A stretch of 64,000 nt of DNA from a virus (IMGVR_UViG_3300032217_000845:32001-96000), one strand, 5' to 3'. Positions 19,155 to 46,242 are shown, numbered from the stretch's first letter. Program-made: numbers and translations. The notes: generated by a model not told the origin, from the letters alone.

Positions 19155-19189
19155 GGTCAATACTACAAACCGATAAGGACGGAAAACAA

Positions 19190-22147: not shown

Positions 22148-22470
22148 TCGGCTCGCCTCCACAAGAACCCGATAGGGATTGAGCAACCGAGGAGTTTCCG
22201 TCCCCTTTCACCTCAACTGCTCTCGCTATTGGTAGAGAACCCCTGACAACTTCCCCTTTGGTCAGGGGTTTTCGCTTACCCTGACCGACACACAATGTGT
22301 CCAGCAAAAGCATCTCTGCTGGAACTTCGTATCAACTAATCCGAAGTCAGCCTGAGCTGCCGAGATGGTCGCCTTGTATTCGTTTTTTCCAAACCGACAC
22401 GCCTCCTCGCCTACTTGACAACTTCGTATTAGTTATGGTAAGGTCGTAGTATCAACCGAAAGGGAAACAA

Positions 22471-22767
22471 ATGGACGACAGAGAAATAGCAACTAACGCA
22501 TTAGTCCTACTAGGGGCAACTGCCGAGGGCTGTGCCGAGAATGGATTGGCTAATCCAATCCTGTATCAAAGTTTGGAACTAGCAATAGAACTAGCAGAAC
22601 ACCTAGACGAACCTGACCTAGTAGTGCTACTCAAATCAGCGTTGATTGGAGTGGGCGAGGGGATTGAGGAAACTATGGCTATCGTCAAACAAATCAAATC
22701 GCAGTTTGACTTTATGAACACAAGCGAGTATAATCAGGACACGACACCTAACAAGGAGGACAACTAA
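22471..22767 (+). CDS. hypothetical protein
   Basis: Promoter and GAAAGGGAAACAA RBS. Confidence 0.65.
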   Translation: MDDREIATNALVLLGATAEGCAENGLANPILYQSLELAIELAEHLDEPDLVVLLKSALIGVGEGIEETMAIVKQIKSQFDFMNTSEYNQDTTPNKEDN

Positions 22768-23663
22768 TGCCAAACTGGGTCTATACATCTATGGCAGTAT
22801 CAGGTAAGAAAGACGACCTGCTCGCCTTTGCTAAGAAAGCCAGCCAGCAACACGAAACTCTATGGCTCACCGAGAGGTGGAAACGCAACGAGGACGGCAC
22901 GAACACCGAAGTCCCCGAGGAGGAACGCAAGATTGAGAAAGAACTATCTCCACCAAGTCCTATCTCGTTCTGGAACTTCTTAGCACCAACAGAGGAGGAA
23001 CTGCCTTACTACTTTGGACACGCAACCAAGCCAGAGGACGAGGCTGACCCTGACGCAACTTCCGAGGAACGACTAGCAAAGGCTCTGTTGTTTGAGGGCT
23101 CGGGCTGGTATGATTGGAATGTTCGCAACTGGGGCTGTAAGTGGGACGCCAATGACGAGGAACTGGACACCGACCTAGACACGCTACAACCACACGATAG
23201 CCTGTCGTATCGTTTCTCTACGGCTTGGTCTCCTGCCGAGGGCGTGTTTCGTGCTATGACCGAACAGCACCCCGAACTATCCTTTGAGTTCTCTTGCGAG
23301 GAGGAACAGGGCTGGGGCGTGGTCTATGACGGCGAGAACGGCTCGCTATCTGTGGCTGACGAGTGGGAGATACCGAACAGCCACGCTGACTATGTGGCGA
23401 GGGATAACGAGGACGGCTGTGCCTGTGCGAGAGATGACGACCAAGAGGATTGGTATTCCGATTGTCCTAGACCGAGTGTTGAGGTTGTCGTAGTGGTAGA
23501 ACACCGATACAAGATTACAGCACCGACCATAGCCGAGGCTTGGGAACTTGCTCTCAACGGCAACCCTGCTGACCTGACGGCAAGCCTGATAGAGGGCGAG
23601 ACTACTGCCTTTGTGATAGGCGAGGACGGCAAGCGTATCTACCCGACCTTAGAGAACGCATAA
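22767..23663 (+). CDS. DUF1281/YubB ferredoxin-like domain protein
   Basis: MPNW start, WYDWNVRNWGCKW, FSTAWSP, F..EE..G. Confidence 0.75.
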   Translation: MPNWVYTSMAVSGKKDDLLAFAKKASQQHETLWLTERWKRNEDGTNTEVPEEERKIEKELSPPSPISFWNFLAPTEEELPYYFGHATKPEDEADPDATSEERLAKALLFEGSGWYDWNVRNWGCKWDANDEELDTDLDTLQPHDSLSYRFSTAWSPAEGVFRAMTEQHPELSFEFSCEEEQGWGVVYDGENGSLSVADEWEIPNSHADYVARDNEDGCACARDDDQEDWYSDCPRPSVEVVVVVEHRYKITAPTIAEAWELALNGNPADLTASLIEGETTAFVIGEDGKRIYPTLENA

Positions 23664-23707
23664 CGGCTCGCCTTGACTAATCAGACGGATTGGTGTAGGG
23701 TAGCCTT

Positions 23708-23941
23708 ATGAGCAAGAACGCAACCGAGGAGTTTGTAGATGTCCTGATTACTTGGGACACCGAGCAAACCGATACAGATGAAGTCGTAGTAGCAATCGGG
23801 GACGGGTCGGTAGTCTATGACGAGGACTTCGCCTTTGACCCCCGAGTGTATTTCTACTTTGATAACCGAGAGCAGTTTGAGTTAGCAAAGACCAAAATAA
23901 TAGAGGACATAAACTTCCAAATCCTACGGGTTTTGGACTAG
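23708..23941 (+). CDS. acidic hypothetical protein
   Basis: Leaderless start after a TTGACT promoter. Confidence 0.6.
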   Translation: MSKNATEEFVDVLITWDTEQTDTDEVVVAIGDGSVVYDEDFAFDPRVYFYFDNREQFELAKTKIIEDINFQILRVLD

Positions 23942-23958
23942 CAAGAAACGGAGTAAAA

Positions 23959-24192
23959 GTGCCAAAGACAAAGCAGATAGATACTTGGGAGTGGTTCATA
24001 GAACGCTACCAAGAACTCGGCTACAAATCACTAAATCAGTTTGCTATCGCAGAGGGCTTTCAGAAGTCCAGCCTTAGCAGATACTTCCACAAGCAAAGAC
24101 AAATGCCAGCAGATACCTTGGTGGCTGTTTGCCTTGCTCTCAAAGTCAAGCCAGAGGATTTGCTGGTTGCTCTGAACGAGTGGAAACGCTAG
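23959..24192 (+). CDS. XRE/Cro-family HTH regulator
   Basis: SLNQFAIAEGFQKSSLSRY...P.ADTLVAVCLALKV. Confidence 0.8.
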   Translation: MPKTKQIDTWEWFIERYQELGYKSLNQFAIAEGFQKSSLSRYFHKQRQMPADTLVAVCLALKVKPEDLLVALNEWKR

Positions 24193-24428
24193 ACCAACCC
24201 CGATAGGGAAACACCTGAGCAAGTGTTCTAAACTGCTCGCCACAATCTGCCTCCGTTTGTATTCGTTTTTTCCTCGGACTTGCGAAATGTCGGAGGCTGT
24301 GATACACTCGCTAATGTGAAGTTCTCCGATAGGACGACACACCAGAGCAAATGAACTTGACAAAGTTTCGTAAGTCTGGTAAGTTCTAAATGTAAAGCCC
24401 AATGATACTAAGTAGATAAGGAAATCAA

Positions 24429-24806
24429 ATGGCAACTACAAAGAGCACCACCACTAAGGGACAGGTTATCCTGACCACCACCAATGAGCCAGAGGTTCGC
24501 CTCTCGGCAAAGGGACAGAAAGCAGTTCGGGAACTCCGAGACGCACACAACTTGGAAAAGCAAGTTGCCGAAATCGTCAAGGCTAGCAGAGATGTTATCC
24601 TCAACGAACTAGGGAACGAGCAGACCAAGTTTGGAACAGACGCAAAGGGTAAGCGTCTGGTCAAAATCCACCTCATTACCCCGAAAGACCCAACACGCTA
24701 CAACACAGCAGAGTTGGTAGCGTTCCTCGCAAAGACACAGCCAGAGGTTCTGGAAATGTTTAGAGCAGAGGACGCAAAGGCGACCACCCGAGTTCTTACT
24801 CTCTAA
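24429..24806 (+). CDS. hypothetical protein, paralog of 32735 and 44810
   Basis: Coiled coil, then a beta hairpin and an 'L....P....F' tail. Confidence 0.65.
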   Translation: MATTKSTTTKGQVILTTTNEPEVRLSAKGQKAVRELRDAHNLEKQVAEIVKASRDVILNELGNEQTKFGTDAKGKRLVKIHLITPKDPTRYNTAELVAFLAKTQPEVLEMFRAEDAKATTRVLTL

Positions 24807-24986
24807 CGAGAGTAAGCCAGAAAAGCCCCGACAGACAGTTATCCCCTTTCACTCTGTCGGGGTTTTCGCCTATCTGGTTTTGGCTCGTTTGTATTCGTTT
24901 TTTCCTCGCATCTAAAATCTTCGGGTTTGACAACGACACACTAATACGAAGTTGTAAATGTCAGAGGTTTATGGTAGAGTGCTGGT

Positions 24987-25436
24987 ATGGACAAAAGACA
25001 AACTAACAACTGCGAAATCTGTGGCGAGTTATTTACTGACCTACCACTTGACGAGGAGTGTTCTTGCTCAAAGAGAAAGGACGCTGCTTTCTATGTCAAT
25101 AGTGATGGTGGCGAGTTCGTGTGGAACCCTAAACTCAATGAGGACGAGGGAGAGAAACACGAATACTATGTTGTGCGTAATGGGGAAATGCGTATCAAGG
25201 CGACAGATGGCAAGGGTAGAGATTATGTCCTACGCTACACAGAGGACTTAGAGGCTTTCGGTATCACGACAGACGAGCAACTTTACGAGGCAAGCACAGA
25301 CGAGGAAAACTTCTATTGGGATATGAACTCTTGGTTTGAGGTCTGCTGTGATTTTGACGAGGCTTACTCTGATGTCTTTGACGACCTTGACAGAGCCATA
25401 GCAGAGGCAGTAAGATTACGAAAGGAAGGACACTAA
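24987..25436 (+). CDS. hypothetical protein
   Basis: N-terminal CxxC; leaderless start. Confidence 0.65.
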   Translation: MDKRQTNNCEICGELFTDLPLDEECSCSKRKDAAFYVNSDGGEFVWNPKLNEDEGEKHEYYVVRNGEMRIKATDGKGRDYVLRYTEDLEAFGITTDEQLYEASTDEENFYWDMNSWFEVCCDFDEAYSDVFDDLDRAIAEAVRLRKEGH

Positions 25437-25723
25437 TGAAACTACGAATAGCGTTTGGCGACACTCTTAGAGAGATACGACAAGACCAACACAGAACTCT
25501 TAGAGAGGTGTCTGTAAAGTCTGGCGTGGCACTTGGCTATGTATCGGAAGTAGAGAGAGGGCAGAAAGAGGCTTCATCGGAAGTCTTGGAAAGCCTGACC
25601 AACACGCTTGGCGTGTCTATGGCTGACTTCCTAATCCTTACAGCGTTGCGTCTAGGTGCTGTCGCTGTCCCCGACACAGCAGAAACCCTACTTGACGAAT
25701 ACACCGACCTTGTGGTAAGATAA
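25436..25723 (+). CDS. clgR: ClgR-like XRE transcription regulator
   Basis: GDTLREIR..Q.RTLREVS..SGVALGYVSEVERGQKEASSEVL closely resembles actinobacterial ClgR. Confidence 0.75.
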   Translation: MKLRIAFGDTLREIRQDQHRTLREVSVKSGVALGYVSEVERGQKEASSEVLESLTNTLGVSMADFLILTALRLGAVAVPDTAETLLDEYTDLVVR

Positions 25724-25742
25724 GGGAAAGGAAAGGACGACA

Positions 25743-25952
25743 ATGAGCAGACAAGTTTATTTTGTAATCGGTGTTGATTTAGACGACAAAACAGTTTTCA
25801 TAGATGACGGCACATTTACGGCTCGCTTTGGTAAAGACGAGCAGGTATGGGACACCGATAAACAAGAGTGGCGAGAATACGAGGGCGAGGAACAAGAGGA
25901 ATACGACCTCGCCTTAGAAATCCTCAACACCGAGAAGTTGAGGGACGACTAA
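25743..25952 (+). CDS. hypothetical protein
   Basis: GAAAGGA RBS. Confidence 0.6.
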   Translation: MSRQVYFVIGVDLDDKTVFIDDGTFTARFGKDEQVWDTDKQEWREYEGEEQEEYDLALEILNTEKLRDD

Positions 25953-26257
25953 TGGAATACGACCTATACTCACCCGAGAGGAACTTCTCGGCTATCCCTG
26001 ACCTGAAACTTGTAAAGATTACAGGGGACGACAGGGACAGAAGTATTCACTTCCTCTGGCGAGGCGATAGACAATGGCTCGCTATGAGTAAGGATAATCC
26101 TTACGAGGATAACTGCTGGCTTGTAGTCAAGACCGACTACACAGACGAGTTTCAGGAGTTTCTTGACGAGGAACTCTCTGGCTACGATAGCCTAGAAAGC
26201 ACCTTTGAGTTATCGGACATTATTCCAACCGAATACTCAATAGAGTTTGATAACTAA
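25952..26257 (+). CDS. acidic hypothetical protein
   Basis: TAATG coupling to the previous gene. Confidence 0.6.
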   Translation: MEYDLYSPERNFSAIPDLKLVKITGDDRDRSIHFLWRGDRQWLAMSKDNPYEDNCWLVVKTDYTDEFQEFLDEELSGYDSLESTFELSDIIPTEYSIEFDN

Positions 26258-26261
26258 ATAG

Positions 26262-26522
26262 ACTTGCTTGATACACGCTGAACCATTTTGGTGCGTGGGC
26301 AGAACTAACTACCTGCCTATTATCAAGGAAACCGAGTGAAATCTCGCTAAACTACGGACAACACGCTCGGTGGTGAATACGCCTCTGGTGGAAGTAGCAG
26401 GTCGGGTCTAGAACTGACCAAGAGTTTATTCTCAATGCGAAATAGCACAATGACGCAAAGTAGCCCCTTGTGTGTTCGTCCGAACCTAAGACCAGATAGC
26501 CATAACGCTTTCTGGTCTTTCT
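26262..26522 (+). ncRNA. candidate structured non-coding RNA
   Basis: ORF-free, several nested stems, ends in a terminator (see findings). Confidence 0.45.
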
Positions 26523-26673
26523 CTTTTTGGTGAGGTGTTGTATTCGTTTTTTCTCTACGCCTACTGTGGAAAGAGGGAACTTCGCATTAGTGTTTCGTTC
26601 TTGACAAATGTCAGAGGAGTATGCTAGTATCACTATGTAGTCAGAAAGTCTGACACAGAAAGGGTCTAGTCCT

Positions 26674-27159
26674 ATGGGATTGGATATGTATTTAGAGGCT
26701 CGCAAGTATGTAAGTGGATACTCTCACAGACCTATTGACGAGCAGAACGAGTATGAGGAAGTGCTGAACTCGGTAGGTATGTCAAGAACAGACCTAACAG
26801 CAGAGGCAAGTCCTTTCGCTAATGTAAGTATAAATGTTGCTTATTGGCGTAAGGCTAATCAGATACACGCTTGGTTCATCAACAACTACGCCAAAGATGG
26901 TGTAGATGATTGTAGCCCTGTCCATCTTGGCGAGAGATACCACCTTAGTATTCTAAGAAACCTCTGCCAAGAGGTCATTGACGACCACAGCAAAGCAGAG
27001 GAACTTCTGCCTGTTTCATCTGGCTTCTTCTTTGGGTCAGACGAGTATGGCGAATACTACTTCCAAGACTTAGAGAACACCATTGAGCAGTTGGATAAGT
27101 TGCTCTCTAATCCTAAGTTTGCTGAGGGCTGGGACTTCATCTACCAAGCAAGTTGGTAG
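26674..27159 (+). CDS. conserved phage protein (MGLDMYL / YWRKANQIH family)
   Basis: MGLDMYL, AYWRKANQIHAWF, LLP..GFFFGS..Y.EYY, YQASW. Confidence 0.8.
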   Translation: MGLDMYLEARKYVSGYSHRPIDEQNEYEEVLNSVGMSRTDLTAEASPFANVSINVAYWRKANQIHAWFINNYAKDGVDDCSPVHLGERYHLSILRNLCQEVIDDHSKAEELLPVSSGFFFGSDEYGEYYFQDLENTIEQLDKLLSNPKFAEGWDFIYQASW

Positions 27160-27336
27160 CCACAAACTAAGCACGACCCCTTAGCACACGCTAGGGGGTT
27201 TTGCTTTACCTGTTTGCTGGCGAGGTGTATTCGTTTTTTCAGACGACACGGCACGGCACGGGAACTTGACTAAACAAATGAACTATGATACTATGTAGAT
27301 ACAACGGGCGAACAGGAAGTAGCCTGAAAGGGATAA

Positions 27337-27708
27337 ATGGAAACTACAACTATTACGGGTCTGGTAGCAACCACACCACGACACCTAGTATCAGCAGACG
27401 GCTTGCCGATTACTTCTTTCCGATTGGCGAGCAGTAATCGCAGGTTTGACCGAGCCACTATGGAGTGGGTGGACGGCGAGACTAATTGGTATACGATTAC
27501 CTCTTTCCGCACACTCGCAATCAACACCGCTACATCTATCAGCAAGGGCGACCGCATTGTTGTATCAGGCACACTTCGTATTCGTGATTGGGACAACGGC
27601 GAACGGGTAGGAACTAGCGTTGAGTTAGAGGCGAGCAACATTGGACACGACTTAGCGTGGGGGACTACCACCTTTGTCCGAACCGTTCATAAAGCAGACA
27701 CCGAATAA
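27337..27708 (+). CDS. ssb: single-stranded DNA-binding protein (actinobacterial short SSB, no acidic tail)
   Basis: ITGLVATTP...FRLAS..RRFDR...WVDGETNWY...SKGDRIVVSG.LRIRDW...IGHDLAWG. Confidence 0.9.
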   Translation: METTTITGLVATTPRHLVSADGLPITSFRLASSNRRFDRATMEWVDGETNWYTITSFRTLAINTATSISKGDRIVVSGTLRIRDWDNGERVGTSVELEASNIGHDLAWGTTTFVRTVHKADTE

Positions 27709-27885
27709 CCGAACGGCTCGCCTAACGGCGTGGGATTGGCAAGCCTAACGGCTTGCCTTTCTGCGTTTGACGGCAAGCCTATTGGCGAGCAGACGGCAAG
27801 CCTAACGGGTGTGTCAGGCTTGACAAAGACCGACCGCTATGGTAGGCTAGCAGAGCAGACAACCCTGCCAACCGATAGGACAGAA

Positions 27886-28128
27886 ATGACAACCGCACTA
27901 CCCGAACTAACCGAGATGACCACCAAGACCGACCAACCGATAGTCGCACTCTACAACCGAGACGACAGACTAACGGGTATCGTAAATGGCTGGAAAGTCG
28001 CTGACGGAGTAATGGAAATGGACGAGAGTATCAAGCGAGCAGTAGCGACTAGCGAACTGACTATGGCTGAACTCGTTGAGATTGACCAGAGTATCGCCAG
28101 ACTTCGCAACTTGCGTGGAACTCTCTAA
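27886..28128 (+). CDS. hypothetical protein
   Basis: TTGACA promoter and AGGA RBS before ATG 27886. Confidence 0.6.
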   Translation: MTTALPELTEMTTKTDQPIVALYNRDDRLTGIVNGWKVADGVMEMDESIKRAVATSELTMAELVEIDQSIARLRNLRGTL

Positions 28129-28304
28129 ACAAAACTAGCCAAGTGGAAACACTTGGTTTTAGTTTTAGCCCGAAGTGTATTCGTTTTTTCCCTGCGTAAA
28201 TTTTGCTGAAAATAAAATCCTAAATGAGTTTGATTTTGTCGGGAGTATGTGGTAGGGTATAAATGTAGTCAGAAATACTGATTATCCAATCACTCTGAAA
28301 GGGT

Positions 28305-28667
28305 GTGGTAAAAGTGGAAACACTAAACCAAGTAGTAATAACAAAGTCGGTCAATGGCGTAGAAGTTGCCACGCTATCTGAACTAGGGATTTTGCTAGGC
28401 GTAAAGCCAAGCACTATCTTTGTCTGGATAGATAAATACAAGAACTTCCCTAAGCCTGTTGCCGAAATCAAAGGTGCTGGTCGTAATGGGCGTTCTCGCT
28501 TGTTCCCGATTGACGCTGTTCAGGTGTGGCACAAGAAACACATTACGACACGCAAGGCTAACGAATGGACAGGTATTCTTTCCAAGTTGAGCCAAATCTC
28601 AAAGGCTAGTCCTGCCACTTACAAAATCATTCTGGAAATGATTGACGAAGCGTCAGGTCGCAAGTAG
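28305..28667 (+). CDS. AlpA/excisionase-like HTH protein, paralog of 30739
   Basis: NGVEVATLSELG..LGV..STIFVW....NFPKP. Confidence 0.7.
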   Translation: MVKVETLNQVVITKSVNGVEVATLSELGILLGVKPSTIFVWIDKYKNFPKPVAEIKGAGRNGRSRLFPIDAVQVWHKKHITTRKANEWTGILSKLSQISKASPATYKIILEMIDEASGRK

Positions 28668-28847
28668 CCACACGACACTAGACTTACCCCCTGCTAATCA
28701 CAGGGGGTTTTCTGGTTTTGGGACACGACTAGTTTGTATTCGTTTTTTCCATCACGACACACTTCGCACTAACACGCTTGACTTTATTTAGAAACTATGC
28801 GATAATAGAGATGTTGTCGGGAAAGGCTCGGCACGGAAAGGGATAAA

Positions 28848-29171
28848 GTGGGCGACAGGTCTGCGATTATCATTGAGAGTGAAAGGTTCATCACGCCTAT
28901 CACGCTATACGGACACTGGTCGGGCAGGAACAACCTTGCTGCTGTGGCTAGTGTGTTGGAAACTACGGACAGGGTTGGCGACCCGTCTTATCTCACGGCT
29001 CAACTGTTTTACAAGTTTGCTGTGGAACTTGGCAAGTATGACGGAAATCTGTCTTTCGGTATTGACGCTTTCGGTGGGACACCACAGGAAATAAATGCGA
29101 CTATGGACACCGATACGATTGTCGTAAATGCCGATAATGGAACTTGGCGTTGGGCGATACCCGTAGAGTAA
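28848..29171 (+). CDS. hypothetical phage protein
   Basis: MGDR...LYGHWSG...DPSYLTAQL. Confidence 0.7.
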   Translation: MGDRSAIIIESERFITPITLYGHWSGRNNLAAVASVLETTDRVGDPSYLTAQLFYKFAVELGKYDGNLSFGIDAFGGTPQEINATMDTDTIVVNADNGTWRWAIPVE

Positions 29172-29384
29172 TCTTTATACGAACGCAGGTTAGCACTCAC
29201 GCAACACGAGTGCTAACCTCTTTTCGTTTTTGCTTAGGTAGAAGTTGTATTCGTTTTTTCCGGCAGCGACAGATAACTTCGCATTAGCGACACGAAGTTA
29301 GACAGACTTGCGTTTGTCGCTAGTGTGTGATACAATGAAGTTATTACACAGGCGAGAAACCTAAGTATCGCTGAAAGGGAAACA

Positions 29385-38689: not shown

Positions 38690-38938
38690 ATGTCTAAGAA
38701 AGTAATCGTTCTAACCTCTACCTCTCAAGGAGAGCGTGGTCAGGCAGGACACAAGAAAGTCTATGAGATTATCGTAGATGGCAACAAGGTAGAACTTCGC
38801 TGGGGCAAGGCAGAGGAAACCAAACGACAGACACAAACCAAGTGGTTCTCTTACGAGAACGCCGCTTACAACTTCGCACTAGAAAAGAAATGGGCGAAAG
38901 TTGATAAGGGGTATGTAGTCGCTTACCAAGCGATTTAG
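38690..38938 (+). CDS. WGR domain protein
   Basis: HKKVYEI.VDG..V.LRWGK...Q...K..KGY. Confidence 0.75.
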   Translation: MSKKVIVLTSTSQGERGQAGHKKVYEIIVDGNKVELRWGKAEETKRQTQTKWFSYENAAYNFALEKKWAKVDKGYVVAYQAI

Positions 38939-39187
38939 CCACGAAAGACTTGTCGGGGTATTGCCCCCCTTTCCCCCGACAAATGAGAAGCCCCCGACTA
39001 GTTCGGGGGTTTCGCTTTTTTGCTGTGGGTGTTTGGCTGTGGTGTTGTTGTATTCGTTTTTTCCATAGCGTTCATACACACGGCGAGTGGGGGGGGGGTG
39101 TGTTGTTGGCGTTTCGTGTTGCTTTTGTCGGTTGTGTGTGGTATGATAGTTATAGACAATCAAGGTGGTTGTCTGAAAGGGAAACAA

Positions 39188-39346
39188 ATGAAAATCTATT
39201 CACTAATCATCCACGATGAAGTTGCTAATGTTCATCCTGTTTATGAAGTTCATTCTTGGGAGAAGGCAGAAGAAATCATCAAGAAAACAATCGAACTAGC
39301 AGAAGGCAAGCCTTTTACTTGGGAAGTTGTCGGAAACTCAAACTAA
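39188..39346 (+). CDS. small hypothetical protein (52 aa)
   Basis: Consensus RBS before ATG 39188; resembles 43502. Confidence 0.6.
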   Translation: MKIYSLIIHDEVANVHPVYEVHSWEKAEEIIKKTIELAEGKPFTWEVVGNSN

Positions 39347-39550
39347 GTTAGTCAAAGTAGTCCCCCTGCGTATGTGGGGGGATTATTTTTTTGTCTGTGG
39401 GTGTGCGTGGTTGTTTGGAAGTGTATTCGTTTTTTCCGTAGGTATAGCAACACGGCGAAGGGGGGGGGCGACTTGACTTTGTCGTATCTATGTGTTATGA
39501 TGTAAATACAAGGGAAACGAAATAGAAGTAGTTTCGTAAAGGGGTTCTAA

Positions 39551-39883
39551 ATGAGTTGTAAAGATTGGTCTATCGCAGTAGTAGCCGAAAAGCCTATGTG
39601 CGACATCTGCCCTAAGTTTGGGTTTATCACTAAGGTTGCCGAGTATGACGCTAGAACGCAGTTCGGGGGAAACCCGTGGGCGTTTATGTGCGAGAGTTGC
39701 TACGGCTACTTTGGGTTTGACCGACTAGGTCTAGGCTATGGTCAGCGACTAATAACAGAGAGCGAACACACTCACGAGTGGATAGAAGTAAATCTCGCCG
39801 AGTATGAAACTTACGAGTTTAGCCAGAGCGAGCCAGATACTACGCTATGTTCGCAATGTGGGCTACATAAGCCAGCAGAATAA
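39551..39883 (+). CDS. zinc-finger phage protein
   Basis: CDIC...YDART..G.PWAFMCESC...LGLGYGQ. Confidence 0.7.
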   Translation: MSCKDWSIAVVAEKPMCDICPKFGFITKVAEYDARTQFGGNPWAFMCESCYGYFGFDRLGLGYGQRLITESEHTHEWIEVNLAEYETYEFSQSEPDTTLCSQCGLHKPAE

Positions 39884-40072
39884 GGTCTAGGGGTTAGGTC
39901 AAGTGCCTAGCCCCTAATCTTATGTTCGGGGTCTGTGGAAAAAACGAATACACCTCGCTTGGCACGGCTACTAGCTTTTGCTGTGGTGTGCTGTCTTACT
40001 TGACTTTCTTATGTTTCTATGTTAGGCTCTCGGTAGAGCCTGAAAATCTCGGGTTCTAGAAAGTGGGTTCCA

Positions 40073-40531
40073 ATGTCCAAGCCAGCCAGCGATAAGCAGG
40101 TAGCGTTTCTTACCACGCTCGCAAGCGAGCGTATCTACGAGGGTGCGACCGAGTTCGCTACCCTTACCTCTGCCGAGGCTTCCGACCTAATCGGTCAGTT
40201 GCTAAACGCACCACGCAAGTCCAGCACCTCTACTTCATACGAGCGTATTACGGAAGAGGGCGTGTATCAAAACGCCGAGGGCGACATCTTCCGTGTCCAG
40301 CGTTCCCGTGAGAGTGGCAACCTCTACGCCAAGCGTCTAGACATCTTTGAGGGTGGCTTTGTCTATGAGGCAGGGCTACTTCGCAAAATCACACCTAGCG
40401 ACCGACTAGGCGTTGAGCAAGCCAAGGCTCTTGGAGTTCAGTATGGCTTCTGTGTAGTCTGTGGTATCTTGCTTACCGACCCTAAGAGCGTTGAGCAGGG
40501 TATCGGTCCTGTGTGTATCAAGCGTGTCTAA
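40073..40531 (+). CDS. DUF6011-like zinc-ribbon protein
   Basis: ASDKQVAFL N-terminus; CVVCGILLTDPKSVEQGIGPVC. Confidence 0.75.
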   Translation: MSKPASDKQVAFLTTLASERIYEGATEFATLTSAEASDLIGQLLNAPRKSSTSTSYERITEEGVYQNAEGDIFRVQRSRESGNLYAKRLDIFEGGFVYEAGLLRKITPSDRLGVEQAKALGVQYGFCVVCGILLTDPKSVEQGIGPVCIKRV

Positions 40532-40770
40532 CGCCTAGCGTTAGTCAAGACCCCCTTGCCAAACGGCAGGGGGGTTTTCCTTTGTCTAATGCGAAGTTGT
40601 GGCACGGGGGGAGATGTATTCGTTTTTTCTGTGGTGCTGGTTTTGGGCTGTGGTCGTTATCAAGTTGTTATGTATTTATTATGCGTTTATGTAGAAAATG
40701 TCTGTGGAGTAGGCTATAATGGTATTAGTTGGAAGTTAGCGAATGTCTAACTCAACTGAAAGGGACGCAA

Positions 40771-40986
40771 ATGGCTAAGCCAAGTGTGAAGTTAGTTCAG
40801 GAATGGGAAGTTGCTTACGAGAGTGGGCTAGTGAAAGTGTCTTACGGCACGGCTGTCTTTGAGCAGGACTATTGGAAAGTGGAAAACAGGATTATCAACA
40901 AGGTTCAGTATTTCTACGGAGAAACTGCGTGGTCGGACGCTAGGCGTAGAGCAAGCGACATTGACTTTGGTGCGTGGAGTTTCTAA
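40771..40986 (+). CDS. hypothetical protein
   Basis: RBS; FYGETAWSDA.R motif. Confidence 0.65.
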   Translation: MAKPSVKLVQEWEVAYESGLVKVSYGTAVFEQDYWKVENRIINKVQYFYGETAWSDARRRASDIDFGAWSF

Positions 40987-41263
40987 CTAAATAATCAAAC
41001 AAACAAACTAGGCAGGGTTCTCCTCTCTGCCTAGTTTTGTTTTTGCCTGTGGTAATGCGAAGTTGCGTGCGTGCGTATGTGTAAGTGCGTGCCTGTGGTT
41101 GCGTTCGTGTATTCGTTTTTTCCTAACTACTACGGAACGAAACACGGGTGCTAGTTCGTTATCTGTTTGTTATAGAAAGTTAGTGTATGAACTTGACTTT
41201 ATCTTAGTTAGGGTATAGACTACATTTGTAGTCGCAAGGGCTACCAGATGAAAGAGGGAACAA

Positions 41264-41587
41264 ATGGCAACTATCAAGATTACTTGGGTATCAAAGGGAT
41301 ACTTGGGCGAGTTCAGGGACGCAACTATCCTTGACCTAATCAACAAGGGCTACGATGTTCGTGGCAACGCAACAGCAGAGTTGGACTTTGACTTTCCAGA
41401 GGGCGACACTCTAATCTGTAATGCTATCTACGCAAACACTAACTCCTACACAGGAAAGTTTTGGGACGCATTACAGGCAGTTATTCCAGCAGACAGACCA
41501 CACACGGCTCTAAGTATGGGCGACAAGGTTTCTATTGACGGACGAGAGTATGTTTGCTCGGAGTTCGGTTGGAAACTTGTAGCCTAG
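41264..41587 (+). CDS. hypothetical protein (YodL-like C-terminus)
   Basis: RPHTALSMGDKVSIDG..YVC..FGW. Confidence 0.65.
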   Translation: MATIKITWVSKGYLGEFRDATILDLINKGYDVRGNATAELDFDFPEGDTLICNAIYANTNSYTGKFWDALQAVIPADRPHTALSMGDKVSIDGREYVCSEFGWKLVA

Positions 41588-41788
41588 CCAAACAGCCAAA
41601 CAGCCAAACAGCCAGCCGAAAGGTTGGTTGTTTGGTTTTTGCGTTAGTGCGAAGTTGTGGCTGCCAGGAAAAAACGAATACAGACCCTAGCCCGACACGC
41701 CCGACACGACAAGCAACTTGACTTTATTGCTGTGGTATGTTAGACTACAAATGTAGTCAGAAAGATTACGGAACTGAAAGGGAAACAA

Positions 41789-42007
41789 ATGAACCTACTA
41801 CAAGCAGAAATCCTAGTTATCGGACTTGAGTTTGAGATTGCTATGGACGGAAAGATGTCTGTTAGTGCCGAACCAGCGATGAAGTCTTTGGGTCGCCTGA
41901 TGAACATTGACGCTTATGCTCACTTTGGTAAAGGCGTAAAGGGTCGCCAAAAGGCTCTTGAGTGGCTCAAGGAAGCGATTGCGGAAGCAGAGAAGCAAGA
42001 AGCCTAA
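41789..42007 (+). CDS. hypothetical protein
   Basis: Consensus promoter and RBS. Confidence 0.65.
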   Translation: MNLLQAEILVIGLEFEIAMDGKMSVSAEPAMKSLGRLMNIDAYAHFGKGVKGRQKALEWLKEAIAEAEKQEA

Positions 42008-42073
42008 TACGAAGTTAGAAGCCCCCTACGGAAGCGTGGGGGGTTTTCTCGTGCCTGTGGAGTTATGAACACC

Positions 42074-42094
42074 TGTGGATAACCCTGTGGATAA
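42074..42094 (-). promoter_or_regulatory. two perfect DnaA boxes (TTATCCACA)
   Basis: TGTGGATAA-CCC-TGTGGATAA. Confidence 0.65.
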
Positions 42095-42187
42095 CTTTGG
42101 TGGGGTTTGTATTCGTTTTTTCCTAATCACGCTTGCGAGTTGCCTCTACAATAGGAACACGCTTACATTTAGAAAGAGAGGCTAACT

Positions 42188-42418
42188 ATGGTTTGGATAC
42201 AAACAAACTTTACCGCCGAAGCAATGAACACGGGCAAGCCAGCGACAGAAACCCCTGTTGTAGCGAAGCCTGAACCTGTCGTCAAGAAGAAGGCTAAGGC
42301 TGAACCTGTGGCAGAAGTAGTAGCAGAAGTAGAAACACCTGCGGTTGAGGTTGAGGAAGTAGTCCTCGCTGAACCAGAGGTCGCCGAGCCAGAGGTCGCT
42401 GAACCCGAAGCAGAGTAA
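42188..42418 (+). CDS. low-complexity Glu/Pro/Val/Ala protein
   Basis: AEPEV repeats; GAGG RBS. Confidence 0.6.
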   Translation: MVWIQTNFTAEAMNTGKPATETPVVAKPEPVVKKKAKAEPVAEVVAEVETPAVEVEEVVLAEPEVAEPEVAEPEAE

Positions 42419-42514
42419 TCACGGCTTATAGTAAAGTCCCCCTTGACTAGAAATAGTTAGGGGGATTTTCTATTTGGTGTTGCTTTTGTCTGTGGTATGT
42501 GATAGACTATAAAT

Positions 42515-42785
42515 AACAAGGAAGCGACGGCTAACTTGGAGTATGGCTGAACAACCTCAATCGTCAGATGGGGGGGTAAGGCAATGTCGGATACTAGCGT
42601 ATCGTCTTAGCGGACAAACGGCAGGTGTGCTGAAAAGCGGGCTTAGAACCGAACTGACTTGGCATTGGTGGTAAAACGCAATCCACCTACTCAACTACAA
42701 ACATAAACGGGCTGGTGTGGCGTTTATGTGGCTAACATTAGTGGCTACCAGACAGAACCCTTAGCGGAAACGCTAGGGGTATTTC
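42515..42785 (+). ncRNA. candidate ncRNA unit (alternatively a 43 aa peptide)
   Basis: Own promoter (42480-42509) and terminator (42756-42785); no long ORF; several stems. Confidence 0.4.
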
Positions 42786-42929
42786 TGTTTTTGCGATGTC
42801 TGCGGTTGCGGTATGTATTCGTTTTTTCCTAGCCCCTCACGAGAGGCGACACACGCACGGCAGGTGGAGTTGCTTTGTTTAGGTGTTAGTGGTATGATTA
42901 CTTTGTAATCAAGCAACGAAAGGGAAAAA

Positions 42930-43298
42930 TTGGAAAACAGAATTACTGAAAAGCAATTAGGGCTTCTAAGAAAACTAGCCAAAGAAAAATACGCACCAAG
43001 TTTGGTTGCGGAGTTGGAGAAGTTTCTAGCAACTGATTTGAGCAAGCAAGGGGCTAGCAACCTTATTGAGAAGTTCCTAGAAGCACCGAAGAAAAGCGAA
43101 AGTCCAGAATACAAAGCCGAACTTGCCGAGAGAGCCAAGCAAGCGAGAGAACGAGCAGAACTAGCCGAGCAAGCCAAGCAAGCAGAAACCGAGAACTGCC
43201 GAGAGTGTAAGCAGGGACACCCTGTCGCACATTTCAATTGTAGTTTCCCGAACAGGATTGGACACACTAGGCACTGCACCGCTGACTTGTGTTTCTAG
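42930..43298 (+). CDS. hypothetical protein
   Basis: ITEKQL..L...LSKQGASNLIE N-terminal module, similar to the N-terminus of 40073. Confidence 0.65.
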   Translation: MENRITEKQLGLLRKLAKEKYAPSLVAELEKFLATDLSKQGASNLIEKFLEAPKKSESPEYKAELAERAKQARERAELAEQAKQAETENCRECKQGHPVAHFNCSFPNRIGHTRHCTADLCF

Positions 43299-43501
43299 TT
43301 AGCAACTAGGGAAGTCCCTTAGCCAGAAATGGTTAGGGGGCTTTCTTGCTTTTGGGCTGTGGCTGTGGGTTAGGTGTATTCGTTTTTTCCTAGCCTCAAC
43401 TGCGACACGACACGCATACGATAATGACTTGACTTTCTGTTATCTGTGTGTTAGAATACTTATGTATTCAAAGGGAATACAAAAACGAAAGGGAAACACA
43501 A

Positions 43502-43708
43502 ATGTCAGTAAAAACTCTAGTAGTAGAAATCCACTACCAAGACGGCAGACCAACTCTAAAGCCAATCTACGAGTGCCACAGCGTAGAAAAGTTTGAGGAG
43601 TTTGTGGCTTGGCACAAGGAAAACCTACCAATGAGAACCACCACAACTCTCAAAGCCTACGACTACAACTCAACCACCCCTGAACTAACAGAGATGATTA
43701 TCAAGTAA
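43502..43708 (+). CDS. hypothetical protein
   Basis: Consensus RBS before ATG 43502. Confidence 0.6.
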   Translation: MSVKTLVVEIHYQDGRPTLKPIYECHSVEKFEEFVAWHKENLPMRTTTTLKAYDYNSTTPELTEMIIK

Positions 43709-43894
43709 GTTAGGCAACCGAGAACCCCCTACGAAAGTGGGGGGTTTTCTTTTGTCTGCGGGTGCGTGTGTTAGTGCGAAGTTGTAGAGTGTGAAATCGG
43801 TAGCGTAAGAAAAAACGAATACACTACGGACACGACAACACGGGGGCGAGTGTGGCTACTTGACTTTTGCTGTGGTAAGTGGTAGAATAGTATT

Positions 43895-44326
43895 ATGGCA
43901 AAACTTCTAGTGCTACAAGGCTTAGTGGCTTCGGGCAAATCAACTTACGCTAAGGGACTTCTATCTATTCACCCTGCGGGCTACGCTATGCGTATCAACA
44001 ATGACGACTTATCTACGGCTATGTTTGGCTCTGCGTTTGGCGGTGGTGCTAACACGGCTCAACTGCTAGGCAAACTTCGGGCGGACTTAGTTCGTCTAGC
44101 GTTTCGCAATGGTTTTGAGTTAGTCATTATGGACAACACAAACCTAAACCCGAAAGCCGTCAAGTCATTAGAAAGATTGGCGGAGAGTTGCGGTGTTGAG
44201 TTTGAGTTGGACAACTCGTTTCTAAGTGTGCCTATTGCGGAGTGCTTGCGTAGAAATGCTCTGCGTGAAAACCCTGTTCCCGAAAAGGTGGTTTTAGAAA
44301 TGGCTCGCCTTATTGGAGATGATTGA
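43895..44326 (+). CDS. P-loop kinase (AAA_33/polynucleotide kinase-like)
   Basis: GLVASGKST, INND, IMDNTNL, ECLRRNALR..PVPEKVV. Confidence 0.85.
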   Translation: MAKLLVLQGLVASGKSTYAKGLLSIHPAGYAMRINNDDLSTAMFGSAFGGGANTAQLLGKLRADLVRLAFRNGFELVIMDNTNLNPKAVKSLERLAESCGVEFELDNSFLSVPIAECLRRNALRENPVPEKVVLEMARLIGDD

Positions 44327-44390
44327 CTTTTGCGTTTCTATGTGGTAGAATACTTTTGTAGTCAAAGGGATTGACTACTGAAAGGGAAAG

Positions 44391-44591
44391 ATGAACAAGT
44401 TCGTTATCACAAAGTCAATAGCAGTAGTCAAGGCAGTTGCTCGTGGTGTTGCGGTAGCAACCGAAAGCAAGGCGACCACAAACCGAAAGGCGAAAGTTGC
44501 TAACGAGGTAGCCAAGTGCGTTGCCGACTTAGGACTAAACCCTGTTGCGAGTGTGAAGCGTGTTGTGCGTATGGTGGAAACCCTGCGGTAA
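44391..44591 (+). CDS. small basic protein
   Basis: Promoter and RBS. Confidence 0.6.
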   Translation: MNKFVITKSIAVVKAVARGVAVATESKATTNRKAKVANEVAKCVADLGLNPVASVKRVVRMVETLR

Positions 44592-44809
44592 GACTTACAA
44601 AGCAAACCCGTCTAGCGAAAGTTAGGCGGGTTTTCTTTTGCTTGCGGTGTTTGCTTCGTGCGTTGTTGTATTCGTTTTTTCCTAAGTGCTTGCCTAGTGC
44701 GACACGCTAGAAAGAAAGTTTGTAAATGAACTTGACTTTTCTGCGGTAGCCTGATAGACTACAAAGGTAGTCAAGGCAAAGGGCTAAGACACAGATGAAA
44801 GGGAAACAA

Positions 44810-45139
44810 ATGACCACAGCAACACAGACCACCGCAAAGGTAATCTCTAAGGTTGAGTTGAGTGCTAAGGGCGTAAAGGCTCTACAAGCGTTCAACAAAG
44901 CAAAGGAAGCGGAAGCAAAGGTAAAGGCAACTAAGTCAAAGGCGGAAGCAATTTTGCGGACAGAGTTGGGCGAAACCCCGAACACACAAGCAACTATTCA
45001 GGGCGTAGTTGTTGCCAGCGTAGTTGGAAGCAAGAATACTTCGTTTGACCGAGATGCTCTAAAAGAGTTTCTAGGTGAAGAGAAATACAACGAGTTCCTG
45101 CGGACAACCGAATACACTTACATCAAAACCGCTAACTAA
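44810..45139 (+). CDS. hypothetical protein, paralog of 24429 and 32735
   Basis: Coiled coil plus FDRDALKE...Y..F tail. Confidence 0.7.
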   Translation: MTTATQTTAKVISKVELSAKGVKALQAFNKAKEAEAKVKATKSKAEAILRTELGETPNTQATIQGVVVASVVGSKNTSFDRDALKEFLGEEKYNEFLRTTEYTYIKTAN

Positions 45140-45328
45140 GTTAGCAAGCGAGCAACCGCTAACCGAAAGGTTGGCGGTTGTTTGCGTTTTTGTTTTGCGG
45201 TGTTGCGTTTCGTGCGTGTGTTCGTGTGTCTGCGGTAAGCGTGGAAAAAACGAATACACTTTCGCCAGCCAGCCACGCCACGAAAGCGAGTGTTTGCTTT
45301 TGTCTGCGGTTAGTGTTAGAGTGTAAGT

Positions 45329-45466
45329 ATGGACATTAGATTTTATGCGTGGAAAGCAGTCGCTAAGGTTGCTAGGTATTTCAGCAGAGTTGGGTATAAC
45401 CTATTTAGGCGAGCCGAACACTTCTCTTATCTTTCAGGTAAGAAAGCAAGCAAGTATAAGGCTTGA
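45329..45466 (+). CDS. small basic amphipathic peptide (45 aa)
   Basis: Leaderless ATG after TTGCTT..TAGAGT. Confidence 0.45.
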   Translation: MDIRFYAWKAVAKVARYFSRVGYNLFRRAEHFSYLSGKKASKYKA

Positions 45467-45524
45467 CTTTACTGCGGTAAAGTGATAGAATAGTATTACC
45501 AGACAACACTAAGAAAGGGTGAAA

Positions 45525-45767
45525 ATGTCTAGCAACTATCCAGACGGCTCTATGATGGGTTCAGGTATTTACGCAAGCGAGGTTTCGTATGAAGAGTTTG
45601 AGTGCGAAAATGAAGAGTGCGGTAAGACCAATGAAGCAGGTGAAACTTCTACTGACGATTGGGGAAACTACTCTATCGAGTGTGAGTTCTGCGGTGCTAA
45701 CTATTTAGAGAGTTCTCTAAGTGATGACCGAGATGACTACTTAGCAGACTACGACCCGAATAACTAA
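45525..45767 (+). CDS. acidic zinc-ribbon protein
   Basis: SNYPDG start; CENEEC...CEFC. Confidence 0.65.
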   Translation: MSSNYPDGSMMGSGIYASEVSYEEFECENEECGKTNEAGETSTDDWGNYSIECEFCGANYLESSLSDDRDDYLADYDPNN

Positions 45768-46242
45768 ATAGACTTATGCGGTAAGGCGGGGAAAGCCGAA
45801 CGCAACTTTACATAACTAAATAAACTTCTGCCTAACTTGTTTCCCCCTTTCCGTTAGGCAGAGAAAGAGAAACGGGACTGCCCCCTAACTAACCCGTTTC
45901 TCCTAAACCGCTAGGCGTTTATTCGTCTAGCGGTTTTGTCTTTGTCTGCGGTGTTTGTTTTTGTGTGTTTGTTGTATTCGTTTTTTCTTGTGCTTGTGAA
46001 ACCGCTTCCACTACGCAACTTTGTATTAGTAGGTTGCTTCGCTTCCTTCGCCTTCGCTTCGTGTTGTTGCTTCGCTTCGCTTTCGTTCGCTTCGCTTCTG
46101 CGGTGCTTCGCTTAGTGAGTTGTTTCGTTATCATTTTGTTATAAAGTCGTTATCGTCTTTGTAATCTTATTACTTGACTTTTATTCTGCGGTAGAGTAGA
46201 ATAAGAGTATGTAGAAAATCTACATAGAAAGAAAAGGGAAAG

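What the first reader, a model, noticed from the sequence alone, without database searches (positions are those of the whole stretch)
22181..45862. Hairpins that display the complement of the island's own ribosome-binding sites in their loops
Seen: several 3' intergenic hairpins have large pyrimidine loops. TTTCCGTCCCCTTTC (22195-22209) is the complement of GAAAGGACGGAAA, the RBS of gene 18675, with 2 extra C. TTATCCCCTTTC (24839-24850) matches GAAAGGGGATA before gene 37852 exactly and is close to GAAAGGGATAA before ssb. TTGTTTCCCCCTTTC (45837-45851) is the complement of the consensus GAAAGGGAAACAA with 2 extra C. Similar loops lie at 22248-22260 and 38959-38973. Most other island terminators have short loops. 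Known: C-rich loop sRNAs such as S. aureus RNAIII pair with SD sequences. Inference: 3'UTR-derived antisense RNAs that shut off SD-led early genes or host mRNAs while sparing the many leaderless genes.
Basis: partly seen in the sequence, partly recalled or inferred. Interest (0 to 1): 0.78.

Follow-up and report, generated by a model that had tools for sequence, protein, structure and literature searches.

The report
Phage hairpins mirroring ribosome-binding sites
A lake phage that probably infects actinobacteria ends several of its transcripts with RNA hairpins whose open loops are the mirror image of its own ribosome-binding sites, and in related phages loop and site change together, so they very probably pair to hold back protein synthesis.

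Summary
CCCCTTT occurs 5 times on the + strand of the 125.8-kb phage genome, and all 5 lie in 13-18-nt hairpin loops behind genes. Its complement GAAAGGG occurs 29 times, 27 of them as ribosome-binding sites (RBS) of early genes.

The feature is conserved. Relatives (39-52% protein identity, plus the named phage DSL-LC01) keep such hairpins with different stems.

At two positions the loop tracks the RBS of the same gene through at least 8 different RBS sequences:
- the hairpin behind the VWA gene;

Permutation tests give p about 5e-5 and below 2e-4.

Best reading: 3'-end anti-RBS hairpins that pair with phage RBS and damp translation, as in the S. aureus icaR 5'/3'-UTR pairing. This is gene-specific in the AAA-VWA module. 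It is generic for the early-zone loops, where action in trans remains open.

No transcript evidence could be obtained, and host mRNAs are unlikely targets. There is no Rfam match, including 6C.

This scan's unchecked notes describe similar anti-RBS hairpins in other, unrelated phages. Three full-text searches found no paper describing such hairpins in phages.

The parts
20209..20230 (+). Hairpin A (not in the finding). The stem TTAGCAC/GTGCTAA contains the TAG stop codon of the AAA-ATPase gene. The loop is TCCGTCCT.
Evidence: Sequence. The loop complement AGGACGGA occurs only twice in the genome, in the RBS of 18675 and of 19190. Those two are the top RNAduplex targets among 198 start regions, at -14.1 each against -9.8 for the next.
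22169..22232 (+). Hairpin #1, an interrupted stem with the 18-nt loop AGTTTCCGTCCCCTTTCA (22193-22210).
   Evidence: Fold. TTTCCGTCC is the exact complement of GGACGGAAA in the RBS of 18675 and 19190. The loop is identical in relative G001.
22235..22273 (+). Hairpin #2, the terminator of the VWA gene, with loop AACTTCCCCTTTG (22248-22260).
   Evidence: The T-rich tail was detected. Homologous hairpins in L118 (loop ACTCCTTTCAC) and G001 (loop TTTCCTTCCCATTTCTC) are shown.
24822..24866 (+). Hairpin #3, a terminator behind gene 24429-24806, with loop CAGTTATCCCCTTTCAC (24836-24852).
   Evidence: The loop core TTATCCC(C)TTTC recurs in four unrelated stems: the window, G001 17827 and 33366, and L115/L148 10408.
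38950..38982 (+). Hairpin #4 in the 3'UTR of the WGR-domain gene 38690-38938, with loop TATTGCCCCCCTTTC (38959-38973). The terminator follows at 38987-39013.
   Evidence: In the 78%-identical homologue (L154/G001) the 15-nt loop is identical while the stem differs with compensating changes.
45826..45863 (+). Hairpin #5 in the 3'UTR of gene 45525-45767, with loop TTGTTTCCCCCTTTCC (45837-45852).
   Evidence: It is not found behind homologues of this gene in the 7 of 11 relatives inspected.
45867..45936 (+). Second C-rich-loop hairpin (loop ACTGCCCCCTAACTAA, 45877-45892) and the terminator hairpin at 45905-45936.
18657..18669 (+). RBS of gene 18675, GAAAGGACGGAAA. Target of loop A and loop #1.
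19174..19186 (+). RBS of the AAA-ATPase gene 19190, TAAGGACGGAAAA. Target of loop A and loop #1.
   Evidence: AAA_5 domain.
22458..45519 (+). Zone holding all 29 GAAAGGG sites of the genome. Of these, 27 are RBS of small early genes, most with their own TTGACT-17-TAGAAT-like promoter and terminator. These are the candidate targets of loops #2-#5.

Best explanation
These are anti-RBS hairpins. They are RNA stem-loops at the 3' ends of phage cistrons or transcripts, and their open loops base-pair with phage ribosome-binding sites. The pairing lowers translation initiation and probably speeds mRNA decay.

In the conserved X-AAA-VWA module the partner is the RBS of the same gene or operon. There the hairpin works as built-in feedback on its own mRNA, an icaR-like 5'/3' pairing. 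Once the 3' end has been transcribed, the loop can close the RBS.

In the early zone, loops #2-#5 match the GAAAGGG(G) core shared by about 27 early genes. They can act on their own mRNA and possibly on others.

Shown: the loops, their placement, conservation of loops over changing stems, and loop-RBS covariation. Inferred: that the RNAs exist with these ends, that pairing occurs, and that its effect is repression.
For: (1) Placement. All 5 CCCCTTT of the genome lie in hairpin loops 11-87 nt behind a stop codon. In four genomes of the family, 14 of 20 sense-strand CCCCTTT lie in loops of perfect stems of at least 6 bp. Two more lie in the interrupted #1-type stem.

(2) VWA gene. In 23 distinct relatives the longest exact complement between the 30 nt before the start and the 130 nt after the stop averages 8.4 nt. 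Non-cognate pairs average 6.6 and shuffled sequences 5.6. Fourteen clade representatives give a permutation p of about 5e-5. RBS/loop pairs:
- L118: GAAAGGAACGGAA/TTCCGTTCCTTTC, 13 nt
- L146: TGACGGAAGGAC, 12 nt
- L135: AACGAAAGGAAA, 12 nt
- L119: TGACGGAAGG, 10 nt
- L136/L144: CTGGAAGGA, 9 nt
- L121: GAAAAGGGG, 9 nt
- L141: GAGAAAAGG, 9 nt
- L138: AGGGAAAGA plus GGACACAC
- DSL-LC01: AAAGGACAA
In L118 and L146 this is the longest complement to the 3' region in the whole 13.8-kb locus.

(3) AAA gene. A hairpin starting at the stop codon is found in 20 of 21 sequences. It carries at least 7 nt complementary to the gene's own RBS in 12 of 21. By longest common substring (LCS), 14 of 20 reach at least 7 nt, against 3.5% of shuffles. 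The cognate mean is 7.1 against 5.4 non-cognate, and 0 of 5000 permutations reach the observed mean. The RBS sequences differ widely: AGGACGGA, GAACGGAA, AAGGACGA, AACGACGA, GACAGGGA, GATAGGACAA, AACAGGGA, GGGGGTA.

(4) Loop kept, stem changed. Loop #4 is 15/15 identical in G001 with compensating stem changes.

(5) DSL-LC01. GTCCTTT occurs once in 32.5 kb, in the loop behind the VWA gene. AAAGGAC occurs 22 times.

(6) Feasibility from the literature (abstracts read). The icaR 3'UTR UCCCCUG motif pairs with its own SD, blocks initiation and gives an RNase III substrate (PMC3868564). In B. subtilis, anti-SD-like 8-mers hundreds of nt downstream pair with the RBS, inhibit initiation and promote decay, and are depleted from genes (PMC12697547). 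Here CTCCTT and TCCTTC are low on the coding strand: 3 against 9.6 expected and 2 against 9.0 expected in 14-64 kb.
Against: No transcript ends, RNA levels or pairing were observed.

Own-RBS complementarity is not a general rule. Over all called genes the cognate mean equals the permuted mean:
- G000: 4.77 against 4.76
- G003: 4.84 against 4.83
- G001: 4.96 against 4.90
- G002: 5.03 against 4.77
.

In the window the VWA gene's own RBS (AGGAAGGA) has no complement behind the gene. Loop #1 matches the RBS of the two genes upstream instead.

Loop #3 does not match the RBS of the gene it follows (TAAGGAAATCAA). Its homologue in L148 follows a leaderless gene.

The clade L121-L123/L128/L130/L141/L143 keeps a loop TCCTTCC(A/G)A behind VWA with no GGAAGGA RBS in the 13.8-kb locus.

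Loops #2-#5 carry 1-3 more C than most window RBS have G, so most duplexes are 7 bp or bulged.

By RNAduplex the loops' predicted targets are only about twice as many as for shuffled loops, and G-runs outrank RBS.

Six of 20 AAA cases and 7 of 23 VWA cases show no clear match.
Confidence: 0.5

Rival explanations
1. The 3'UTR hairpin plus terminator is cut off or accumulates as a small RNA. This RNA acts in trans on many RBS, shutting off the class of early genes with GAAAGGG(G) sites and sparing leaderless genes. It would be a phage analogue of C-rich-loop sRNAs such as actinobacterial 6C/B11 or staphylococcal Rsa/RNAIII.
For: - The architecture of anti-RBS hairpin followed by a terminator hairpin (#1+#2, #4, #5+#6) resembles such sRNAs.
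- The loops match a core shared by 27 RBS.
- The strongest predicted start-region targets of #3-#5 are the four GAAAGGGG sites at 32735, 34506, 37312 and 37852, on other transcripts.
- L148 has the hairpin behind a leaderless gene.
- The 12-nt loop TTATCCCCTTTC recurs in unrelated stems.
- About 5 of 30 promoter-gene pairs look leaderless.
- 6C acts through C-rich loops without a chaperone in the predicted host phylum (PMC6486639, abstract).
Against: - At the two positions where specificity can be read, the loop follows the neighbouring gene's own RBS, not the consensus.
- The candidate trans target ssb does not keep GAAAGGGATAA in G001 or G002, although those genomes keep the loops.
- No RNA evidence was obtained.
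- Hairpins come and go behind different genes: #5 is absent behind homologues, and #3 is absent in L150, L151 and L153.
Confidence: 0.3
2. The loops are recognised by a protein or mimic the 16S rRNA 3' tail (CCUCCUUUC-like). They would act as a decoy or binding site, for example for a C-rich-RNA-binding protein, a nuclease or a ribosome-associated factor. On this view, complementarity to the RBS is a side effect of mimicking the anti-SD.
For: - The conserved core CCCCUUUC resembles the anti-SD. In L118 one loop reads CUCCUUUC exactly.
- Loop flanks such as UAUUG in #4 are conserved without an evident RBS partner.
- The TCCTTCC loops lack a matching RBS in their locus.
Against: A fixed protein or rRNA-mimic motif cannot explain loops that follow non-SD parts of individual RBS. 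Examples are ACGGAA in L118, TGAC in L146, GATAGGACAA in L135 and GACAGGGA in L128. No candidate protein was identified.
Confidence: 0.08
3. The loops have no function of their own. On this view they are ordinary terminators or 3' stabilising hairpins whose pyrimidine-rich loops match purine-rich RBS by composition, or they are leftovers of inverted copies of RBS modules made by recombination.
For: - Shuffled loops of the same composition also find many RBS-like partners.
- Hairpins #2 and #3 are plausible intrinsic terminators.
- The early zone is a mosaic of cassettes in which modules move.
Against: - Cognate pairs beat non-cognate pairs and shuffles at two positions.
- Loops are kept identical while stems diverge.
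- The motif occurs only in loops.
- Anti-SD-like words are otherwise avoided in mRNAs (PMC12697547 abstract).
- #1, #4 and #5 are not terminators themselves, because a separate terminator follows each.
Confidence: 0.07

Closest known systems
icaR mRNA 5'UTR-3'UTR interaction of Staphylococcus aureus (PMC3868564, abstract read)
   Same: A C-rich anti-SD motif in the 3'UTR pairs with the SD region of the same mRNA. The expected result is blocked initiation and decay.
   Different: Here the motif sits in the loop of a dedicated hairpin, right at or near the stop codon. It occurs several times per phage genome, extends beyond the SD into gene-specific flanks, and is conserved with covariation across a phage family. 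No experiment has been done.
6C / B11 small RNA of Actinobacteria (PMC6486639, abstract read)
   Same: Hairpins with C-rich loops pair with G-rich mRNA sites without a chaperone, in the phylum predicted as host. Loop #4 has six C. Loops #5 and #6 are two tandem C-rich loops followed by a terminator.
   Different: No Rfam hit to 6C or to any sRNA family. These hairpins are 3'UTR-embedded, phage-encoded and carry a UUUC extension matching the phage RBS.
C-rich/UCCC-loop sRNAs of Staphylococcus (RNAIII, Rsa RNAs, RsaE). Known to me from memory and from the listing of PMC6158497.
   Same: Loops complementary to SD sequences occlude ribosome binding.
   Different: Those are independent genes acting in trans on host regulons. 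Here the loops lie in mRNA 3' ends and track the adjacent gene's RBS.
Long-range anti-SD-like folding within bacterial mRNAs (PMC12697547, abstract read)
   Same: Pyrimidine-rich anti-SD-like words far downstream pair with the RBS, repress translation and destabilise the mRNA.
   Different: There they are accidental and selected against. Here they are displayed in loops and conserved, so they are apparently used.
Lambda sib retroregulation of int, and long-distance RBS masking in RNA phages such as MS2 (both recalled, not read here)
   Same: A 3'-located or distant RNA element controls expression of an upstream phage cistron.
   Different: sib works through RNase III and read-through, not anti-SD pairing. 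The MS2 partner lies inside another coding region and couples two genes.

Membership tests
icaR-type same-mRNA 5'/3' anti-SD pairing | An anti-SD/anti-RBS motif lies downstream of the stop codon on the same transcript as the RBS it matches. | tested here: met
   Met by sequence for hairpin A and #1 (RBS of 18675/19190) and for VWA in relatives. Transcript limits are predicted only. Not met for loop #3, whose own gene has the RBS TAAGGAAATCAA.
icaR-type same-mRNA 5'/3' anti-SD pairing | Base pairing is supported by compensatory changes. | tested here: met
   Natural covariation only. There are at least 8 different RBS/loop pairs at each of two positions, and cognate pairs exceed permuted pairs. 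No mutational test was done.
icaR-type same-mRNA 5'/3' anti-SD pairing | Pairing blocks the initiation complex and creates an RNase III substrate. | not testable with these tools
   Needs toeprinting and RNase assays.
6C sRNA family (Rfam family; accession recalled as RF01066) | Match to the Rfam covariance model. | tested here: not met
   No 6C hit at gathering score in the 64-kb window, nor at E up to 10 in 45700-46000 and 22100-22320.
6C sRNA family (Rfam family; accession recalled as RF01066) | Two or more hairpins with loops rich in C used for target pairing. | tested here: inconclusive
   Loop #4 has CCCCCC. Loops #5 and #6 have CCCCC each and lie in tandem. Their use for pairing is inferred.
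3'UTR-derived trans-acting sRNA | A stable RNA species corresponding to the 3' end of an mRNA. | not testable with these tools
   Only contigs of relatives in RNA libraries were available. They give no ends or levels.
3'UTR-derived trans-acting sRNA | A seed complementary to several mRNAs other than the parent. | tested here: met
   Loops #3-#5 have their best predicted partners at the RBS of 32735, 34506, 37312 and 37852. Enrichment over shuffled loops is only about twofold.
Intrinsic (Rho-independent) terminator | A G+C-rich hairpin directly followed by a T run. | tested here: met
   Met for #2 (tail TTTTCGC) and #3 (stem ends in TTTT). Not met for A, #1, #4 and #5, which are followed by other sequence and, for #1, #4 and #5, by a separate terminator.

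The most novel reading that the evidence does not exclude
The hairpin that holds the AAA stop codon in its stem is a translation-sensing switch on a closed-loop phage mRNA.

The loop keeps the cistron's 3' end paired to its own RBS. Each terminating ribosome melts the hairpin and the loop-RBS duplex, which frees the RBS next to the released ribosome. New initiation would then be gated by, or coupled to, termination on the same message.

Together with the CCCC/GGGG 'private' RBS-loop code, this would give the phage family its own translation-control layer, orthogonal to host SD/anti-SD pairing.
Probability: 0.12. Interest if true: 0.85.

Novelty: new variant of a known kind. Interest (0 to 1): 0.62.

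Why it matters
Pairing between the 3' end of a bacterial mRNA and its own ribosome-binding site was described as a 'singular example' for icaR (PMC3868564 abstract).

Here a whole family of uncultured freshwater actinophages appears to use the principle systematically. It shows natural compensatory evidence at two positions and a gene-specific code. In some lineages it has expanded to several hairpins per genome.

If confirmed, this would have four consequences:
- Phage 3' hairpins annotated as plain terminators can carry regulatory loops.
- It would offer a simple, portable, chaperone-free part for tuning translation in Actinobacteria.
- It would give a sequence rule for finding such regulators in metagenomic phages: the complement of the local RBS in a 3' loop.
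- The position of one hairpin on the stop codon makes the link between termination and initiation directly testable.

Tried and rejected
- Megablast of 20 kb against named phages gave no match.
- An exact search for the RBS module GAAAGGGAAACAAATG in IMG/VR gave only single, mostly chance hits.
- An RNAduplex scan of the whole genome with the loops was dominated by G-runs (39077, 39449) and was not specific.
- The trans-target idea 'TTATCCCCTTTC loops target the ssb RBS' was rejected. The ssb RBS is GAAAGGGAACA in G001 and GAAAGGGAAAA in G002.
- The idea that the loop targets the RBS of the next gene downstream on read-through transcripts was rejected for VWA. In L146, L118 and L119 the own RBS matches better than the downstream one.
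- Minus-strand genes starting from the loops were rejected. No start codon follows the GAAAGGGG on the minus strand at #3 and #5 (read).
- A genome-wide 'every gene has an own-RBS loop' rule was rejected.
- Rfam gave no family for the hairpins.
- Hairpin #5 is not conserved behind homologues of gene 45525. I inspected 7 of the 11 loci, and none has it.
- Homologues of gene 24429: I inspected 4 of 7 loci, and 1 has the anti-RBS loop. G001 has it as well.
- RNA evidence: 2 RNA runs hold 6-10% of the sampled words. Laid as contigs, they are 85-95% relatives and show neither ends nor strand. The variants seen at 22244-22256 fit the G001-type loop and were not analysed further.
- Literature: no paper describing phage 3' hairpins with anti-RBS loops was found. 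The searches were 0 papers; 5 papers, none on phage elements by title or abstract; listing only.
- Supplementary files were not consulted.
- The 16S rRNA 3' tail of the unknown host was not examined. The 'private code' argument rests on the recalled canonical tail.

Full report
**What the DNA is**

The window is bases 32001-96000 of a 125,776-bp IMG/VR virus record. It has no near relative among named phages by megablast.

The closest named record by protein is Actinomycetia phage DSL-LC01, at 42.6% identity over the VWA protein, followed by Microbacterium and Gordonia phages. The paper on DSL-LC01 predicts an actinobacterial host (PMC10611076, passages read).

From about 11 kb to the end of the window the genes lie on the + strand. 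Between 22 and 46.5 kb lies an array of small genes. Most have their own TTGACT-17-TAGAAT-like promoter and their own terminator.

Pfam finds an AAA_5 ATPase (19190-20212), a weak sub-threshold CoxE-like VWA match (20339-22147; 21 bits against a 26.4 cut-off), SSB (27337-27708) and a WGR domain (38690-38938).

**The observation**

The five loops are as described.

- CCCCTTT occurs five times on the + strand of the whole genome, only in these loops.
- Large loops of strong hairpins cover 2% of the genome. Four of five falling there has P about 8e-7, and the fifth loop sits in an interrupted stem.
- The complement GAAAGGG occurs 29 times, all between 22458 and 45513. Of these, 27 precede a start codon, most as GAAAGGGAAACAA(A)ATG.
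- Ordinary terminators in the zone have loops of 3-8 nt.

**A sixth hairpin**

I verified it.

- TTAGCAC-TCCGTCCT-GTGCTAA lies at 20209-20230, with the TAG stop codon inside the 5' arm.
- The loop complement AGGACGGA occurs only twice in the genome. Both sites are RBS: gene 18675 (GAAAGGACGGAAA) and the AAA gene 19190 (TAAGGACGGAAAA).
- Among 198 start regions these two are the best duplex partners by a wide margin, at -14.1 against -9.8.
- Loop #1 behind the VWA gene holds TTTCCGTCC, an exact 9-mer complement of the same two RBS.

**Relatives: the VWA gene**

A search with the VWA protein gave 32 IMG/VR loci at 39-52% identity, 23 of them distinct in the relevant regions. Nearly all carry one or two hairpins just behind the VWA stop codon.

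The loop is complementary to the RBS of that same gene, although the RBS differs between clades:

| Relative | RBS segment matched | Length |
|---|---|---|
| L118 | GAAAGGAACGGAA | 13 nt |
| L146 | TGACGGAAGGAC | 12 nt |
| L135 | AACGAAAGGAAA | 12 nt |
| L119 | TGACGGAAGG | 10 nt |
| L136/L144 | CTGGAAGGA | 9 nt |
| L121 | GAAAAGGGG | 9 nt |
| L141 | GAGAAAAGG | 9 nt |
| L138 | two blocks of the 5'UTR | - |
| L129 | CAAAGGGG(G)TA | - |

- In L118 and L146 this is the longest complement to the 3' region anywhere in the 13.8-kb locus.
- In L146, L119 and L136/L144 the loop follows the VWA-specific variant of the RBS, not the consensus ACGACGAAAGGAC used by neighbouring genes.
- Cognate pairs average 8.4 nt, against 6.6 for non-cognate pairs and 5.6 for shuffled sequences.
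- With one representative per clade (14, including the window and DSL-LC01), only 5e-5 of random pairings reach the observed mean.
- In DSL-LC01, GTCCTTT occurs once in 32.5 kb, in the loop behind this gene. AAAGGAC, its RBS, occurs 22 times.

**Relatives: the AAA gene**

- In 20 of 21 sequences a short hairpin starts at the stop codon. Its arms differ but compensate: CTAAG/CTTAG, CTAGC/GCTAG, CTAGG/CCTAG, TTAGCG/CGCTAA, AACCT/AGGTT and others.
- In 12 of 21 it carries at least 7 nt complementary to the gene's own RBS.
- By longest common substring, 14 of 20 reach at least 7 nt, against 3.5% of shuffles. None of 5000 permutations reaches the cognate mean.
- The matched RBS segments are unrelated between clades: AGGACGGA, GAACGGAA, AAGGACGA, AACGACGA, GACAGGGA(A), GATAGGACAA, AACAGGGA and GGGGGTA.

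This is a second, independent position with natural compensatory change.

**The early-zone loops**

In G001, a 54-kb fragment of a close relative, the picture is as follows.

- The #1 loop is identical.
- The #4 loop is identical over 15 nt, while its stem differs with compensating changes.
- The hairpin behind the homologue of gene 24429 has another stem and the loop AAACCCCCCTTTCG.
- Further CCCCTTTC-loop hairpins stand behind other genes.

The 12-nt loop TTATCCC(C)TTTC occurs in four unrelated stems. Over four genomes, 14 of 20 sense-strand CCCCTTT lie in loops of perfect stems, and two more lie in the #1-type stem.

The hairpins are not tied to particular genes.

- #5 is absent behind the homologues inspected.
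- #3 is absent in three of four loci inspected.
- Homologues of gene 28848 carry two such hairpins in G001 and G002 but none in the window.

**What does not fit a purely cis model**

- Own-RBS complementarity is not a genome-wide rule.
- In the window the VWA RBS (AGGAAGGA) has no partner behind the gene.
- Loop #3 follows a gene with an unrelated RBS. Its homologue in L148 follows a leaderless gene.
- One clade keeps a TCCTTCC loop with no matching RBS nearby.

**What does not fit a purely trans model**

- The loops show gene-specific tracking at two positions.
- The ssb idea failed.

**Mechanism**

The evidence shows selection for complementarity between 3' hairpin loops and RBS. The simplest mechanism is loop-to-RBS pairing that hides the RBS.

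This is known for icaR within one mRNA (PMC3868564, abstract). It is also known for anti-SD-like words far downstream in B. subtilis mRNAs (PMC12697547, abstract). In trans it is known for C-rich-loop sRNAs such as actinobacterial 6C (PMC6486639, abstract).

I favour action on the same operon for the AAA-VWA module. I leave cis against trans open for loops #2-#5.

The stop codon inside the stem of hairpin A suggests that terminating ribosomes open the element. This is an inference.

The loops read CCCC where the canonical 16S tail (recalled) reads CUCC. They would therefore bind phage GGGG-type sites better than host GGAGG sites, which makes host mRNAs unlikely targets. This too is an inference.

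**Comparison and novelty**

The element is not a member of any Rfam family. It works like icaR or 6C but differs in four ways:

- it is a loop-displayed element placed at the 3' end, partly on the stop codon;
- it occurs in several copies per genome;
- it is phage-encoded;
- its code covaries with the RBS.

Three literature searches found no description of such phage elements.

Unchecked notes of this scan report similar anti-RBS hairpins in other, unrelated phages. I did not test these and do not count them as evidence.

**Verdict**

The element is a new variant of a known kind. Interest is 0.62.

Noticed in passing
window 42520-42697 (+): Rfam manA RNA motif, 61.4 bits against a gathering score of 55.2 and full model length, inside the early zone.
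   Followed up: no
window about 24888-24905, 38555-38568, 39047-39062, 43375-43388; also G001, L148, L154, L163: The motif GTATTCGTTTTTTCC recurs between terminators and the next promoter and is kept in relatives. Other first readers flagged an invariant 14-15-mer in this zone.
   Followed up: no
window 39085-39094 and 39461-39469: Runs of 10 and 9 G lie just upstream of promoters, shortly after hairpin #4. They are the strongest predicted duplex partners of the C-rich loops.
   Followed up: no
window 20233-20274: A 12-bp hairpin whose 3' arm contains the -35 box TTGACT of the VWA promoter. The same layout, with AAATGGACTTGAC, is seen in relatives.
   Followed up: partly
window 46500-48300: This stretch has no ORF of 50 aa or more, GC of 0.395 and AT skew of -0.345. 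It holds 7-8 tandem TTGACT-17-TAGAAT-like promoters with no gene behind them.
   Followed up: no
window 23708, 33232, 36837, 43462, 43895: Start codons lie 4-6 nt after a -10 box, so these are likely leaderless genes. That is 5 of the 30 promoter-gene pairs scanned.
   Followed up: partly
L132, L133, L138 (for example L138 4240, 5889, 10374, 11607): The repeated motif TTTTTACCCCCTTTCTATATA, sometimes as inverted pairs, occurs in one clade of relatives. It is unrelated to the hairpin loops.
   Followed up: no
L121-L123, L128, L130, L141, L143, about 40 nt after the VWA stop: A conserved small hairpin gcg-TCCTTCC(A/G)A-cgc has no GGAAGGA RBS in the 13.8-kb locus. Its partner is unknown.
   Followed up: partly
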